Positions 24,508 to 36,385 of a DNA stretch of 64,000 nt are shown here, piece by piece; position 1 is the first letter of the stretch, and each line of letters begins with the position of its first letter. The notes under the pieces are model-generated. The model did no database searches, was not told the DNA's origin, and was given only the letters and a program-made list of their open reading frames with translations. The stretch is from the human T2T-CHM13v2.0 reference genome, Homo sapiens. Location: NCBI RefSeq assembly GCF_009914755.1, contig NC_060927.1; one strand, 5' to 3'. Made by a program: the position numbers and the translations under genes.

Positions 24508-25919
24508 CTATCACAGCATTCTGTGCATTTATCTCAGAGAAATAAAACCTATACATAAATATTCATATCTTAGGTTTACTGTAATATTTGTAATAGCCAA
24601 AAACTGGGAACAATCCAAATGTCCTTCAACAGGTTAATAAACAAACTGGATGGATGGTACATCCATACAATGGAATACCACTAAGTGACAAAAAGGAACA
24701 AACTATTGATATATGCAACGTGGAGAGATCTCAAGGGAATTATGCTGAATGAAAAAAAAAGGCCAAAAAAGCCACTGTCAAAAACTGATATATGATTTCA
24801 TTCATAGAACACTCCCCAAATGAAAAACATTACAGACATGCAAACCATATAACTCACTGGTTGCCAAAAGTTAGGGATGGGTGGGGGAGGGGCAATGTGA
24901 GTATAAAGGAATAGCAGGAGAGCATTCCTTCGTAGTGATGTAACAGTTCTATATCTTCATTGCAGTGTCAGTTACATTAATATACACATGTGATAAAATT
25001 GTATAGAAGTGTAGACACACACAAATAAGTATATGTAAAAACTGGAGAAATGTAAATAAGGTCTGTAGTTTGCACCAATGTCAATCTCCTGGTTTTGATA
25101 CAACCACTGCAGTTATGCAAGATATTACCACTGCAGCAAACTTAGTGAAGGGTAGAGGAGCCTTCTCTAAACTCTGTTTGCAACTTTCTGTGAGTCTGTA
25201 ATTATTTCAGAATGATTTTTTTTAATACGGTCTAACACAATTTACAATTGTCTAAACAATCTCCACTATGTTTTCAAATGTCCTCTGACTTTATAGGTAC
25301 TTGGAACCTGCTAAAACCAACCCTTAGGTTTGATACTACTCTTATTTCTATGTACTTCTTGTTTATATGTTGTATTTGTGAGTAGAGGTTTGCCTAATAC
25401 TGCATGGGTACCATACAGTTTTTAATTAAAGGCACTTTGGAGAAGTAAAGCAAAAAGAAGCCTGTTAGTTTCACTACACTCCTATTACTAGTAAGCACAA
25501 CTTAAACCACAAAAATAACACTGCCAATCAAAATGGTCAAGAGGATGGAAGACTCCAAGGTGTAGGCAAAAAGCAAACAGGTAAACAAAAGTGTCAGAGT
25601 ATTTTAATGCAGAAAGAGAAAAGCTGAGACAAAATAATAATAAAAAGCACAAAAATGACAACCATGAAGACTGATAGTTACACATCTTAAGCTTTAAAAA
25701 GAACAGCACGGAAAGGTACAATGTTAAAGCCTCATAAGCTTGTGTGTAGTTACGTAAAAAAATAATTCATGCTTTAAAGACTTAGCATAAATTAATGGAC
25801 ATTTTTAATTTTGTTCTCCTTTTCTTTTTAATCACACAAATTTTCTATTCTCCAAATAACTGAAAACTGACCATTTTTTCATGAGCCCAAGATAAGATGA
25901 AAAAATTATTAGTAATTAA

Positions 25920-26395
<476 letters not shown>

Positions 26396-26499
26396 AACAT
26401 TCTTATATTTTCTAAGAATATTCATGAAATTAAAAAAAGAAGATAGTGGAGCTAGGGCCAAGTAGCTGAAGTGACTGAATCACCTTAAGACAGAGCAGT

Positions 26500-26827
26500 G
26501 AAAAGTCTCTGTATACCCCCGGCCCTCCGCCAAAAAAAAAGAACCCAGAAAAACAAAGATCAGGTCTAGCAAAGTAAAATCCATAACCAGCGGCTGGTAA
26601 TACTGAGGGGTGTTACTATAGACTCCTCTCAGGAACAGTAGAATGCCTGGATCCTGCACAGAATGATTTGTGCATAGATGTGATTTTAGAGGACTACAGC
26701 ATGATCTCACTGGGCTTTTCATCTTCTGCCAGATGTAGTTTCCTCTTTGGAGAAAGGAAAAGAGCCCTGGGAAGTTGTGATGGATGAGACAAAAGGATAC
26801 ATTTCAGGAAGATGTGTGTGCCACTGA
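26500..26827 (+). pseudogene. Processed KRAB-domain pseudogene (KRAB-A joined to KRAB-B, no zinc fingers), antisense within GBE1 intron 1
   Basis: 26591-26640 RLVILRGVTIDSSQEQ*; 26641-26727 ECLDPAQNDLCIDVILEDYSMISLGFSSS; 26729-26827 PDVVSSLEKGKEPWEVVMDETKGYISGRCVCH*. Matches KRAB-A ([33 protein letters not shown]..SLG) and KRAB-B (PDVISLLEQGKEPW) with no intron; has a stop and frameshifts. Confidence 0.9.
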
Positions 26828-26974
26828 AAGCCTTGATGATCCAGGCTCACTTTCAGCTAAGGATGACCATGGGACAATTCTGATCAATAACCTGTAAATG
26901 GGAAGAACCAGTTGAAGTTTACAAGAAAGCTAACATATGCTTCACTAAAAAAGACATAGTAAGCTAGCACGTGT

Positions 26975-27220
26975 TCCAGCTAGAAACATGGATGTGGTGC
27001 CAAGCTGTGCCCAATCAACCTCTAAGCATAAGAAAGGAGACCATATGCTAAGGATAATATAGCAGAAGATAAAGAAGGATGTATTTAAGCTAAAGCCCAA
27101 ACCACTGACCTTCGCTTTTCTTCACAAGCCTCTATTTCTATAATTCATTGCTTGTGGGATATTCTGTTAATTGAAAGTGTGCTGGGTTTTCTATGACATG
27201 AACCTAAATGCATAACCAAT
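26975..27220 (+). mobile_element. Old MLT1 (J/K/L-type) LTR fragment
   Basis: CATGGATGTGG...CCATATGCTAAGGAT..AGCAGAAGATA...GGGTTTTCT. Confidence 0.5.
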
Positions 27221-29364
27221 TTTATCATGTTTCTGTACTGGTGTGTATATCTGTATTGTGCAGTTATTCATAATTAAATATAACCTGTGGCTAGGTGTTA
27301 TTAATGGAAATGAAAACAGATTGATGACACTGAGTATCATGTGATATCACCGGTAAAACAAACAGTTAATTCTTTTTGCTGGGTATTTGGAAAACTTCAA
27401 CTTTATGCAAGAAATACATTTGTATATTTGGTTTCTGATTATCATATTTTGGGTTGTAGAACTAGTGTATAAACCCAGAGATTGTGTCTCATTAAAATTA
27501 ATCATTCAATGGATCTACTAAAATACATATGAATATTCTATTCATTTGTTTTATGCATCTTATGGCAAAATCAAACCCATTGAAAATAACTGCAGCCATC
27601 AAATATCAAAAAGCAAGAGAGGAAAAAAAAGAGAAGGCAGAATATTGGATTTATAACTTTTTCTAATTAATATGCACATATCATATGTTCAGACTCCACT
27701 AGAATAATTATTTCATTTTCAAACTTTTATGCTGCTATTATATATTTTTTCTTCTTCTACATTAGTCTTATTTTCAAAGTTACTCCTGCTATTAGTAAAC
27801 TCAGTATGACCATTCCTCTAACCATCTACAGTTCAGGAGGAAGAAAATCCCTGCAGCTGTTTGATGCCCAAGAATATGAACACTTAGCAGTCAGATGAAA
27901 GAAAAGAAAAAGACAGAAAAGGAAGATCAAGAGAACAGTGATTTTGAATTTCTGCAGGCTAGCATTTACCTCTCTCAATAAAAGGAGCTTTGTGCTCATT
28001 ATATCCCAGGACTCATCTTGCCTTCAGCTTATAGTAAACTGGCAATTTCTTTATCATTTCCTCTCTAAATTAAGGATCAAAGTTTAAACATATTCCTTTC
28101 CTTCTCTATTAGATTATGATTAAAATTACCACCTGCCTCACCTCATTCACACAATCACTCCTACTAACAAAAAAAAAGAAGGAACCCCCTAAAGTAAGGC
28201 ACAGTTAACTAGCAAAACAAAGAGTTGTGGGGAATTTCTGGTCATGGTATTTATCTGATGATTGATTTCAGAATACAGTGTTAAAGAAGCAAACAGTAAA
28301 ATCTTCTGAAAGTAATATCCTAGTAAATATTTAACTTGATATATTAGTTTGCTAATAATATTATCATCAAACTATTATTTGTTTACTGAGCATCTTCACA
28401 TGTATTCTTAGTCCTCAAGACACCCTACAAAGTGGATTCTATCCAACTTTTATGGATGAAGAAATAAGTTCACAGAGGTTGATTAATTTTCCCTAGGACT
28501 CAAAGCTATTTAATAGTTATAAGAGCTAAAATTTAATTGTATAATAAATCAATGAATGTAAGATGTATAACATATTTTAAAACTCTACATAATCATGTGT
28601 TTAACATAGAGTCTTACCTTTTGTCAAGGTACCGGGTTCCTGTTGCCCTAAACACAAAACACAATGGGGATTCTTCTGGATATTAAACACAAAGGAGCCC
28701 TGGATTCAAAACAGTGGTGAACATAAACTGATGAGCTCATATTGCCATAAGAAGAAAATCAGCTCACTTTACAATGAAAGGTACCTGGTAGTAGCAATTT
28801 TCTCCAAAGAATACACTTTCATATTTTCCTTTAATACCTATAAATGTATAATCAAAGTTTAATATGTGCTTTCAAATAACAGCAGTATGATATACTTATC
28901 AGTCTAAAACTATAGCATATTTCACAGAGACAATATTATCACCTCACTAGCTGACCAAGGCCCAGTTTGATGAGAGCTGAAAGGAATCCTGTAAGTTACA
29001 ACACACACAGTCATTTCTCAGGAGGTGGTGCAGCAGGTGCCAGAGCCTAAACTAAACCAAGATGCTCCACGAAGTCATTTGAAGGCACTTTGAAAATGAG
29101 AAGAGGTCAGAGCCTGTTGACCATCACTGTAGAGAATTCAGGAATGACTGGAGTTAGTAAAGATCTCAGCTGCAAAGGGCAAATGAATCTAGTAGTGCAG
29201 AAGAGCAGGTCATGTACATCTTGTCATCTTCAGATTCTTCACTGCCTTCTACAGTCACTGACATCTGACTTCCTTCAGAGCCCACAACTTGGCCAGGCAC
29301 TGAGAAAAAAGTACCCCATTCCACTGTGATATAAAACTTCTGCGCTGTGGGAACCAATTTTTGG

Positions 29365-34604: not shown

Positions 34605-36385
34605 GAAGGGGAAAAGGCCAAGGTAAAGAAGGGAAGGAACATCCAAAACATCCTAAGGGAACATCCAAAAAATTTCAAATCAAAAGATATCTGTTGGGGA
34701 AGGATGAGACAGTCCATCAAAGAGAAATTTCCTTCTTCATCACCTTAATTATATACTGTTGTTTGTACCTCAAATTTTCTTCACTCCTTAGTAAGCATAC
34801 TTTGCACCTAAGTGTTTGACTGGTTATGTATTTGTGTTAGGCCAAAGACACACAGTCCAAATGGATTATCAGAAATAAATGGAAAATTGGACAAGGAACT
34901 AAGACCAGATTGTATGAAGGAAAAATGTTTTATTCTTCAAGTGTTAACAATAGAAGTTACCACTAACAAATGCCAAATTACTATTTGATATGCCTAAATG
35001 GAACATGTATGCTAGCAAATGGCCATTACTCAGAACCAAGGACAAAAGTAAAATCCGGGTCAGAGTGAGGCATGAGGGCCCACTGGACGAGACTTTTCAC
35101 CAAGCACACTGGATTCTCTTCCCTTCTTTATCTTGGCCTTTGTTCCCTTCATTAGTTTTGGCAAACCATGAAAGAAGATTATAAATGCTTCAATCCCAGT
35201 GGAGTTGGAAATAAAGTACATGAAAGAAACACTTAATAAAGAATGTTAATCTGTTTGTGTCATTTAAAAAAAAAAGGAAGGGGGTGTAGATAAAACATTT
35301 CCACAACTCTTCTTTAATAAATATCTTAAGTGTCCTTTTACAAAGCACACAGGTAAATTAATGTCATGGTTACAAGGACATCAAAAAAAAAATCTAACCA
35401 CTACCTTTAATCACTATCTTTTGTTCTAAATTTTTTCTGACTATTTCTAAATCAAATCCAACCTTAAACCTATGACGATTATGCACTAAGTTTCTCTGAA
35501 AGCATATACTGTAAATTCTGAAAACAATTTCACAAGGCTGCTCCTCATATGGTTTATATAAGAGCATAATCATCTGATTAAGTGAGGGACAGCTCAAGGT
35601 GATTATTTTACAGAGGCCTCATTCACTACTATATACAAGCTCAAGAATGAAACTTCACATCCCTTACAATCCCTAGAGCAGTGTTTTATTTATAGGAGTT
35701 CCTCAATAAACACTTGCTGATTTGAATGCATTTAATACCTGAAAATGCTAGGACACAAACAATTTGCTGGGCTTTTTTCAAACTCCAAATCAACCCATTT
35801 TCATTACTCTCAACGCTCCTTCATGCCAGTTAACTAGTTGGATGTTTTCCATCACTCGAAAAATTGGCCATGTATATTCTGTTGCCAGGATAGTTTCCAT
35901 TCTGCAGTGTCTCTCCTAAAAGGGGAGAAACTATTAAATCAAAATGGGGTAACCTCACAAGTATAACTATTACAACTTGTATAATAGCTCTTTTACTTCA
36001 AACAACAACGACAACAGAAAAAGACCTGTACCTTTTTAGTGGAACTTATGAATAGAATTATTAGCCCAGTAACTAAAGTTGTATGGTACACAATGGTAGA
36101 AGACAAGCTAAAACGACATTGGCCTGTAAAAGTTGCTTTCCTGACCTTTCTCCCTCTTCAAGATGGTTAAAGTCACACACGGACAAATGTTGATGTACAT
36201 TTAACTTCTCAATGTTGATCCAAGGGGAGAAAAAATTGATCAATGTAGGTGTAATCTTCCCCTAAATGAGGAATATTAGCAAGGAAAAAACAAAAGGATA
36301 TAGTGTCTGCCTGAAGGAATCCTCTTAGATATAAAATCACAACATTTGCTATGAAATAAACTAGAAAGTTTTAAATGCGTAATTA

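What the first reader, a model, noticed from the sequence alone, without database searches (positions are those of the whole stretch)
26500..27520. Fossil retrocopy of a KRAB-only (zinc-finger-less) transcript hidden antisense in GBE1 intron 1
Seen: a + strand segment that the ORF track does not capture in these frames decodes, across a stop and frameshifts, as QRLVILRGVTIDSSQEQ*/ECLDPAQNDLCIDVILEDYSMISLGFSSS/PDVVSSLEKGKEPWEVVMDETKGYISGRCVCH*. A decayed start context (AAAATCCATAACC, ~26577-26589) precedes it. Established: in KRAB-ZNF genes the start codon, KRAB-A, KRAB-B and the zinc-finger array lie on separate exons. Here they are contiguous, so this is a processed mRNA copy. At the expected end of the KRAB-B exon (..TCAG|, ~26807) the sequence does not enter a linker or C2H2 array. 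It runs into a 6-codon tail, TGA (26825-26827), UTR-like sequence with an MLT1 remnant, and ATTAAA at 27491. Inference: the parent gene made a spliced KRAB-O isoform that was expressed in germline or early embryo. Such proteins can bind KAP1/TRIM28 without DNA-binding fingers. From memory, the SLGF..LEKGKEPW...DET.G pattern resembles 19q13.1-cluster genes such as ZNF790 (unverified). The parent isoform may be extinct or unannotated.
Basis: partly seen in the sequence, partly recalled or inferred. Interest (0 to 1): 0.8.

Follow-up and report, generated by a model that had tools for sequence, protein, structure and literature searches.

The report
Dead fingerless KRAB gene retrocopy
A decayed, intron-less copy of the front end (the KRAB repressor domain) of a zinc-finger gene lies in the first intron of GBE1; it is an ordinary dead pseudogene that may record a finger-less transcript of a gene that can no longer be identified.

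Summary
The middle one passes Pfam's KRAB cut-off (E 4.6e-5, 23.4 vs 20.4 bits). The DNA matches KRAB-A and KRAB-B exons of chr19 zinc-finger genes at 73-88%. In 19 of 23 paralog loci these two exons are 172-1255 nt apart. Here they abut exactly at the exon borders, so this is a processed copy. It is dead: one stop and two frameshifts.

No zinc-finger remnant exists anywhere in the 64 kb (best tblastn E 0.5). A chr5 retrocopy used as control gave 3e-67.

The "KRAB-only isoform" reading is plausible but not shown. 26808-27600 matches nothing else in the genome and no parent can be named. A candidate unit 26551-27623 ends in an A/G-rich tail and is flanked by a 16/19 direct repeat. That repeat alone is not beyond chance. 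The MLT1 and ZNF790 claims could not be verified.

Both KZFP retrocopies and KRAB-only isoforms are already described. Low interest.

The parts
26532..26550 (.). Candidate 5' target-site duplication (AAAAAAAAAGAACCCAGAA)
   Evidence: Matches 27624-27642 at 16 of 19 positions. It is the best ungapped match between 26449-26588 and 26808-28300. A score this high arises in 22% of 1245 control placements, or 2.4% if an A-rich stretch must precede the 3' copy. Suggestive only.
26551..26590 (+). Leader: remnant of the exon(s) upstream of KRAB-A (5' UTR, perhaps the start codon). The true 5' end is uncertain, anywhere from 26399 to 26590.
   Evidence: Where paralogs have a pyrimidine tract before the acceptor, the window has A-rich sequence (GCAAAGTAAAATCCATAAC). 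There is no other genome match. The assignment is an inference.
26591..26713 (+). Copy of a KRAB-A exon (123 nt against 127 in paralogs). TAG at 26639-26641 stands where paralogs have the conserved Trp codon. There is a 1-nt gap there and a 3-nt gap near the 3' end.
   Evidence: Pfam KRAB E 4.6e-5. 73% identity to chr19:23802614-726 and chr19:42903318-430. 76.4% identity to the consensus of 19 paralog exons, which average 83.4%.
26714..26807 (+). Copy of a KRAB-B exon (94 nt against 96), joined directly to KRAB-A. It is 2 nt short at its start, which causes the second frameshift, and it is kept to its last bases (..TTTCAG).
   Evidence: 88% over 52 nt to chr19:39080526-577, and 77-79% to chr19:40625362 and chr19:40509679. 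70.2% identity to the consensus of 23 paralogs, which average 75.7%. In 19 of 23 paralog loci the A-B intron is 172-1255 nt.
26808..27600 (+). 3' segment of unknown origin. It could be the alternative 3' end of the copied transcript (retained intron or alternative last exon), or a remnant left after an internal deletion. It is non-coding.
   Evidence: Only self matches in the genome. No Pfam family reached its curated cut-off (only chance matches at E 0.096-0.16) and no Rfam family matched. No zinc-finger similarity. No alignment to the intron or ZNF exon of four paralog genes beyond noise. It starts G-AAGA, one deletion away from the GTAAGA donor of paralogs, but profile and anchored tests are not significant.
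27491..27496 (+).
   Evidence: Present, but no A-rich tract follows within about 100 nt. Probably not the signal used.
27585..27590 (+). AATAAC, a possible decayed AATAAA, 10 nt before the A-rich tract
   Evidence: Read. Inference.
27601..27623 (+). A/G-rich tract, the candidate decayed poly(A) tail
   Evidence: It opens the only tract in 26808-27700 where 20-nt windows hold at least 13 A; the windows listed start at 27601-27625 and so run on into the candidate 3' duplication. The 25 nt before the 3' repeat copy are 56% A and 76% A+G.
27624..27642 (.). Candidate 3' target-site duplication (AAAAAAAGAGAAGGCAGAA)
   Evidence: as for the 5' copy.

Best explanation
This is a dead processed pseudogene. 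An mRNA of a KRAB zinc-finger (KZFP) gene was reverse-transcribed and inserted, most likely by the LINE-1 machinery, antisense into GBE1 intron 1.

Shown:
- The copy holds a KRAB-A and a KRAB-B exon joined exactly where paralogs have an intron.
- It carries a stop and two frameshifts.
- It is not followed by any zinc finger.

Inferred:
- The inserted unit is about 26551-27623: a short leader, KRAB-A, KRAB-B, about 790 nt of non-coding 3' sequence and an A/G-rich tail, between 19-nt direct repeats.
- LINE-1 copying starts at the 3' poly(A) end. A copy that keeps the 5' exons but has no finger exon therefore most likely came from a transcript that never contained that exon. That would be a KRAB-only transcript, ended either by read-through and polyadenylation in the intron after KRAB-B or by an alternative last exon.
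- It has no function now.

The processed-pseudogene core is about 0.9 sure. The KRAB-only template is about 0.55-0.6, and that is the figure given as confidence.
For: KRAB identity:
- Pfam PF01352 above cut-off.
- DNA matches to chr19 KRAB-A and KRAB-B exons, with a reciprocal hit.
- A weak match to the ZNF93 KRAB chain 7z36_D (E 0.46).

Processed:
- The A|B junction sits at the exon borders. The intron is present in 19 of 23 paralog loci, at 172-1255 nt.
- The locus is on chr3, away from the chr19 genes it matches.

Dead:
- One stop and two frame changes.
- Identity to the paralog consensus is 76.4% and 70.2%, against paralog means of 83.4% and 75.7%.

No fingers:
- tblastn with a 487-aa, 12-finger chr19 ORF against all 64 kb gives a best E of 0.51, on the opposite strand 9 kb away.
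- The same query gives 3.5e-67 on the chr5 retrocopy.

Unit boundaries:
- The only A-rich tract in 26808-27700 begins at 27601; its first 23 nt are read as the tail. AATAAC lies 10 nt before it and a 16/19 direct repeat flanks it.
- 2.4% of 1245 control placements give an equal match that is also preceded by A-rich sequence.

Background:
- KRAB-only isoforms are common in human KZFP genes. One preprint reports 310 expressed isoforms without a DNA-binding domain from C2H2 genes, with ZNF470, ZNF530, ZNF571, ZNF208 and ZNF302 as examples (passages read).
- Retrotransposed KZFP copies are described in mouse (passages read).
Against: - No parent gene and no homologue of 26808-27600 were found, so the 3' segment is not shown to come from a KZFP locus.
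- The direct repeat is A-rich. Its score alone is reached in 22% of controls, and the A-rich criterion was added after seeing it.
- A poly(A) tail and target-site repeats would also survive an internal deletion of the finger array, so they do not separate the two readings.
- The linker after KRAB-B is not conserved among paralogs, so 26808 onward could be decayed linker.
- Intron-start profiles built from 27 paralog introns do not hit 26808 onward. An anchored extension test gives only p 0.07-0.14.
- The 5' junction (leader|KRAB-A) is compatible with splicing but not proven.
Confidence: 0.55

Rival explanations
1. An ordinary full-length KZFP retrocopy (KRAB, linker, finger array, 3' UTR) later lost its finger array. 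The loss could be an internal deletion, leaving part of the 3' UTR and the tail. It could also be a deletion or rearrangement that replaced everything after KRAB-B with local intron sequence.
For: - Full-length KZFP retrocopies exist. The chr5:107.05 Mb copy has KRAB-A, KRAB-B and a decayed finger array in one piece.
- 26808-27600 is unique in the genome, as local intron would be.
- Its G+C (0.40 falling to 0.30) is close to that of the flanks (0.31-0.36).
- The target-site repeat is not beyond chance.
- Homology with paralogs would stop at the KRAB-B exon end in any case, because the linker is not conserved.
Against: - Not one finger remnant is left in 64 kb, so the deletion would have had to remove the whole array of 1 kb or more cleanly while sparing KRAB-B to its last base.
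- From general knowledge, not a call: kilobase deletions within a given few kb are uncommon in mammalian neutral DNA over tens of millions of years.
- An A/G-rich tail with a flanking repeat lies about 800 nt downstream. This fits a short unit, though an internal deletion would also keep it.
Confidence: 0.27
2. A chimeric retrocopy. The reverse transcriptase started on another polyadenylated RNA, which gave 26808-27623, and switched template to a KZFP mRNA, which gave the KRAB part.
For: - The 3' segment shows no relation to any KZFP locus tested.
- A listing of a paper on LINE-1 recombination with diverse RNAs appeared (PMC13174262; title and abstract start only).
Against: - The 3' segment matches no other place in the genome, so no donor RNA gene is seen either.
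- A switch exactly at the last base of the KRAB-B exon would be a coincidence.
- Nothing in the 3' segment reaches a curated Pfam cut-off (only chance matches at E 0.096-0.16) and no Rfam family matches.
Confidence: 0.06
3. Not a retrocopy. It is a chance KRAB-like reading, or a DNA-level fragment of a KZFP gene.
For: Only one of three frame pieces passes Pfam, and modestly. A 29-aa protein search of the genome found only itself at E <= 0.001 (58 candidates scored).
Against: - Independent DNA matches to both exons in several chr19 genes, with E down to 1e-9 genome-wide, plus the reciprocal hit.
- Both exons are in the right order and orientation and abut at the exon borders, which a genomic fragment would not do.
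Confidence: 0.03

Closest known systems
Processed pseudogenes / retrocopies of KRAB zinc-finger genes (described for mouse KZFP units in PMC5363842; passages read)
   Same: Intron-less, away from the gene clusters, with a candidate poly(A)-derived tail, and homologous to intron-containing cluster genes.
   Different: This copy has no finger array at all, and no donor gene can be named. The mouse examples were paired with donors. The chr5:107.05 Mb human copy seen here keeps its fingers.
KRAB-only (DNA-binding-domain-less) isoforms of human C2H2 genes, e.g. ZNF470, ZNF302 (bioRxiv 10.1101/2024.11.28.625692; passages read). From recall only: the mouse KRAB-O protein and the KRBOX genes.
   Same: The architecture is KRAB-A + KRAB-B, a short tail, a stop, then untranslated sequence.
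   Different: Here it is a dead DNA fossil, not a transcript. The link to such an isoform is an inference from the missing fingers and the 3' anchoring of LINE-1 copying. It is not shown by homology.
KRAB domain of ZNF93 in its solved complex (PDB 7z36 chain D)
   Same: ECLDPAQNDLCIDVILEDYS.MISLGF aligns to [27 protein letters not shown].
   Different: The match is weak (E 0.46). Several conserved positions are changed in the window copy (R to N, Y to C, M to I, N to D), and the frame is broken on both sides.

Membership tests
KRAB box (Pfam PF01352) | Profile match above the curated gathering score | tested here: met
   23.4 bits against a cut-off of 20.4, E 4.6e-5, profile positions 17-38 of 42, on the 26587-26787 frame.
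KRAB box (Pfam PF01352) | N-terminal half of box A (VTF.DVAV.F..EEW) present | tested here: inconclusive
   The 23-aa piece alone gives no Pfam hit. At DNA level the stretch aligns to paralog exons from their first base. The motif spelling is recalled.
KRAB box (Pfam PF01352) | Open reading frame (a working domain) | tested here: not met
   TAG at 26639-26641 and two frame changes. It is a relic, not a domain-encoding gene.
KRAB A+B type KZFP gene | KRAB-B exon following KRAB-A | tested here: met
   26714-26807 matches KRAB-B exons of chr19 genes at 77-88%.
KRAB A+B type KZFP gene | C2H2 zinc-finger array downstream | tested here: not met
   tblastn best E 0.51 in the whole 64-kb window, against 3.5e-67 on the chr5 control.
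LINE-1-mediated processed pseudogene | Introns of the parent family absent, with junctions at exon borders | tested here: met
   The A|B junction is exact. The intron is 172-1255 nt in 19 of 23 paralog loci. The leader|A junction is compatible but not proven.
LINE-1-mediated processed pseudogene | Poly(A) tail at the 3' end | tested here: inconclusive
   The A/G-rich tract 27601-27623 opens the only A-rich tract in 26808-27700. It is decayed and cannot be told from a chance A-rich run.
LINE-1-mediated processed pseudogene | Target-site duplications | tested here: inconclusive
   16/19 repeat at 26532-26550 and 27624-27642. Controls reach this score in 22% of placements, or 2.4% with the A-rich criterion.
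LINE-1-mediated processed pseudogene | Identifiable intron-containing parent gene | tested here: not met
   The best matches are ordinary paralog level (73% for A, 77-88% for B) and lie in different genes for A and B. The 5' and 3' parts match nothing.
   No parent is available. There is no alignment to four paralog genes. Intron profiles give no hit. The anchored test gives p 0.07-0.14.
A one-off AATAAC at 27585-27590 is well placed, but it is not a canonical signal.
MLT1 (MaLR LTR) remnant inside the 3' segment | Similarity to the repeat family | not testable with these tools
   No repeat library is on hand. Genome searches of 26808-27640, 26808-27210 and 27211-27600 found only the stretch itself, and that search skips very common words.

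The most novel reading that the evidence does not exclude
The copy is a fossil of a KRAB-only messenger made in the germline or early embryo of an ancestor, by a KZFP gene that has since been lost or changed beyond recognition in humans. The messenger would have had a leader, KRAB-A, KRAB-B, a short tail and about 790 nt of 3' UTR. It was probably produced by read-through of the KRAB-B donor site, since the window reads CAG|G-AAGA where paralogs read CAG|GTAAGA. If so, finger-less KRAB transcripts were abundant enough to be retrocopied tens of millions of years ago, and this copy preserves intron or UTR sequence of an otherwise vanished gene.
Probability: 0.5. Interest if true: 0.25.

Novelty: new member of a known kind. 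Interest (0 to 1): 0.15.

Why it matters
It matters little. The copy adds one unannotated, dead KRAB-only pseudogene to the human map; the RefSeq table supplied with the finding lists only GBE1 in this window. If the KRAB-only template were confirmed by cross-species alignment, it would be a small, datable piece of evidence that finger-less KRAB transcripts are old and were made in the germline. Nothing suggests any effect on GBE1. The copy overlaps none of the enhancer or silencer intervals listed in the hub table.

Tried and rejected
I used a tblastn finger scan in a script instead, and single open frames for Pfam.
2. A 29-aa KRAB-A protein search of the genome scored 58 candidates, and only the window itself passed E <= 0.001. 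The query is too short to rank paralogs.
3. Intron read-through idea. Nhmmer profiles of the first 70 and 150 nt of 27 paralog introns after KRAB-B gave no hit at 26808 onward; the best E values, 3.5 and 0.49, were elsewhere in the window. The 400-nt profile hit only repeated elements, at places the hub table lists as masked. Scored as one of 1591 and one of 791 segments, the real segment got no score at all. In an anchored extension test against 23 introns and about 400 control segments, the fraction of controls reaching the real value was 0.14 (maximum), 0.085 (top five) and 0.068 (mean). I keep this as a lead only.
4. Sensitive blastn of 26440-27720 was run against four chr19 paralog genes (10-16 kb each: intron, finger exon, part of the 3' end) and the chr5 retrocopy. 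It found only the KRAB exons and A-rich noise. The reversed-query control reached E 0.03.
5. Pfam on 10 open frames of the 3' segment gave only chance matches (E 0.096-0.16, all far below their cut-offs). Rfam on 25800-28800 gave nothing.
6. A PDB sequence search with the KRAB-B frame gave nothing. The top hit of the KRAB-A frame is a designed repeat protein matched through the out-of-frame part, which is an artefact.
A smaller fetch of four stretches was granted, so only four paralog genes were compared in depth.
9. I ran no further search on naming the chr19 genes or ranking KRAB proteins. The decayed 27-29 aa pieces cannot discriminate among hundreds of KRABs. The ZNF790 idea therefore stays untested by name.
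10. Literature searches (the last for GBE1 + KRAB + pseudogene: 3 papers, all unrelated by title) found no description of this locus. Supplementary tables of the two papers read were not looked at.
Full report
**Observation.** The frames are 26570-26641 (QSKIHNQRLVILRGVTIDSSQEQ), 26587-26787 (with ECLDPAQNDLCIDVILEDYSMISLGFSSS) and 26705-26827 (with PDVVSSLEKGKEPWEVVMDETKGYISGRCVCH, then TGA at 26825-26827).

Pfam's KRAB model hits the middle piece above its curated cut-off: E 4.6e-5, 23.4 bits against 20.4, profile positions 17-38 of 42. The other two pieces give no KRAB hit; the match here covers box A only, and the first piece is just 23 residues long.

At DNA level, 26560-26830 searched against the whole T2T genome found six places besides itself:
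- chr5:107048665-845, at 71% over 175 nt.
- Five chr19 places.

Searched separately, the KRAB-A part matches chr19:23802614 and chr19:42903318 at 73% (E 4.7e-9 and 1.6e-8). The KRAB-B part matches chr19:39080526 at 88% over 52 nt, and chr19:40625362 and chr19:40509679 at 79% and 77%. A search started from a chr19 KRAB-B exon found the window again at E 2.8e-6, among 29 matches. The KRAB reading is real.

**It is a processed copy.** Local alignments place the two boxes 0.85-1.2 kb apart in three chr19 genes, whereas in the window they are contiguous.

I collected KRAB-B exons of paralogs and dropped four near-identical duplicates plus the rows that repeat loci already held. Both exons were found within the held DNA in 19 of 23 loci. 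The intron between them is 172-1255 nt (median 701), and GT opens it at 18 of the 19 predicted donors.

In the window the KRAB-A copy ends ..CACTGG at 26713, and the KRAB-B copy begins at once (GCTTTTCATCTTCTGCCAGATG). This matches the exon ends and starts of the paralogs. Upstream of KRAB-A the paralogs have a pyrimidine tract and CAG. The window has A-rich sequence before its CAG, which fits an upstream exon rather than an intron, but this junction is not proven.

The chr5 match is another intron-less copy. It has a decayed finger array about 300 nt after its KRAB.

**It is dead.** An alignment to the paralog consensus shows:
- T-AG where paralogs have the Trp codon TGG, that is a stop plus a 1-nt deletion.
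- A 3-nt deletion in box A.
- A start of box B that is 2 nt short.

Identity to the consensus is 76.4% (A) and 70.2% (B). Functional paralogs, each compared with the consensus of the others, average 83.4% (n=19, range 74.0-91.3) and 75.7% (n=23, range 60.4-86.5). The excess decay of 6-7 points is a lower bound on neutral divergence since insertion, and the 24-30% distance from the consensus is an upper bound. With a neutral rate recalled as about 2e-9 per site per year, this means tens of millions of years, perhaps 30 to over 100. It cannot be dated without orthologues.

**No zinc fingers.** A 487-aa open frame with 12 fingers from the chr19:39.07 Mb gene was run by tblastn against the whole window on both strands, with permissive settings. 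The best hit is E 0.51 at 35478-35585, on the minus strand. The same query gives E 3.5e-67 on the chr5 retrocopy. Fingers decayed to the degree of this KRAB would be seen, so none is present within 26 kb upstream or 37 kb downstream.

**What follows KRAB-B.** The KRAB-B copy is kept to its last bases (..CATTTCAG, 26807), as in paralogs that end ..TTTTCAG..GTTCAG or ..GTACAG before the donor. From 26808 on, nothing could be assigned:
- Genome searches with 26808-27640, 26808-27210 and 27211-27600 found only the stretch itself. So did a search with the 5' flank 26449-26600.
- Ten open frames gave only chance Pfam matches (E 0.096-0.16, far below their cut-offs), and the region matched no Rfam family.
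- Sensitive blastn found only the KRAB exons and A-rich noise. The targets were four paralog genes rebuilt from fetched pieces (10-16 kb each: intron, finger exon and beyond) and the chr5 copy. A reversed query reached E 0.03.

Because the best KRAB matches are only at ordinary paralog level, and differ between boxes A and B, no parent gene is recognisable in the human genome. If neutral divergence is near the upper bound, a non-coding parental segment would by now be about 65% identical, below what these searches see. The silence is therefore uninformative, and 'parent extinct' is not shown either.

**A lead that did not reach significance.** Right after the exon end the window reads G-AAGATG..., where chr19 paralogs read GTAAGA or GTAAGT. 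About 21-25 nt further it has GAAAGCC, where several paralog introns have GGAAGCCAT. This would fit read-through of the donor and polyadenylation inside the intron.
- Profiles of the first 70 and 150 nt of 27 such introns do not hit this place.
- The segment gets no score when ranked among 1591 or 791 control segments.
- In an anchored extension test, 7-14% of about 400 control segments do as well.

**Ends of the unit.** In 26808-27700 the only A-rich tract (at least 13 A in 20 nt) begins at 27601, and its 20-nt windows start at 27601-27625. ATTAAA occurs at 27273 and 27491, and neither is followed by such a tract. AATAAC lies at 27585-27590.

The best ungapped match between 26449-26588 and 26808-28300 is 26532-26550 against 27624-27642, at 16 of 19 positions. 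The 3' copy starts directly after the A/G-rich stretch 27601-27623. In 1245 control placements on both strands of the window, 22% reach that score. Only 2.4% do so with at least 50% A in the preceding 25 nt, and I added that criterion after seeing the case.

The 16/19 identity fits the lower estimate of divergence. I therefore take 26551-27623 as the likely inserted unit, with moderate confidence.

**Explanation.** The shown facts are the KRAB identity, the intron removal, the disablements and the absence of fingers.

The inference runs as follows. LINE-1 reverse transcription starts at the poly(A) end and often fails to reach the 5' end; this is established knowledge, not a call. A copy that has the 5' exons but lacks the large last exon most simply came from a transcript without that exon. 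Such KRAB-only transcripts are common today. A preprint reports 705 annotated isoforms without a DNA-binding domain, of which 310 expressed ones come from C2H2 genes. It names KRAB-only isoforms of ZNF470, ZNF530, ZNF571, ZNF208 and ZNF302 (passages read).

The main rival is a full-length copy that later lost its fingers through a deletion. That would require a clean kilobase loss sparing KRAB-B to its last base, but it cannot be excluded. The tail and repeats would survive an internal deletion, and the linker after KRAB-B is not conserved among paralogs.

My odds:

| Reading | Probability |
|---|---|
| KRAB-only template | about 0.55 |
| Later deletion | about 0.27 |
| Chimeric copy | about 0.06 |
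| Not a retrocopy | about 0.03 |
| Unassigned | the rest |

**Comparison and novelty.** Retrotransposed KZFP copies outside the clusters have been described in mouse. They are recognised by missing introns, a poly(A)-derived end and homology to cluster genes (PMC5363842, passages read). KRAB-only isoforms are also described. This locus is one more member of a known kind.

The RefSeq table supplied with the finding lists no pseudogene here, and GENCODE could not be consulted. Four literature searches turned up no description of the locus. There is no sign of present function.

Noticed in passing
L002 / L012 (T2T chr5:107047594-107048845, minus strand): Another processed KZFP pseudogene. KRAB-A and KRAB-B are contiguous (70-71% identity to the window copy) and are followed about 300 nt later by a decayed zinc-finger array (tblastn E 3.5e-67 to a chr19 finger ORF). 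It has no intact finger frame.
   Followed up: partly
window 25937-26408: A long (TA)n/(TATG)-type microsatellite (about 25950-26113) abuts the poly-T end of a minus-strand Alu (about 26114-26395). The pair is flanked by a direct repeat, AACATTCATAT (25939-25949) and AACATTCTTATAT (26396-26408). The microsatellite therefore seems to have grown out of the Alu's A-tail. Read by eye.
   Followed up: no
loci L003, L005, L006, L007, L017, L023 (chr19 KZFP genes), first ~35 nt of the intron after KRAB-B: Several paralogs share a motif ..GG(A/C)AGCCAT.. about 23-30 nt into the intron after the KRAB-B donor. This stretch of intron is conserved among duplicated genes. It was not examined further.
   Followed up: no
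window 35478-35585, minus strand: The best, non-significant zinc-finger-like tblastn match in the window (E 0.51, several finger registers). It lies about 1.2 kb from GBE1 exon 1. I take it as chance.
   Followed up: no
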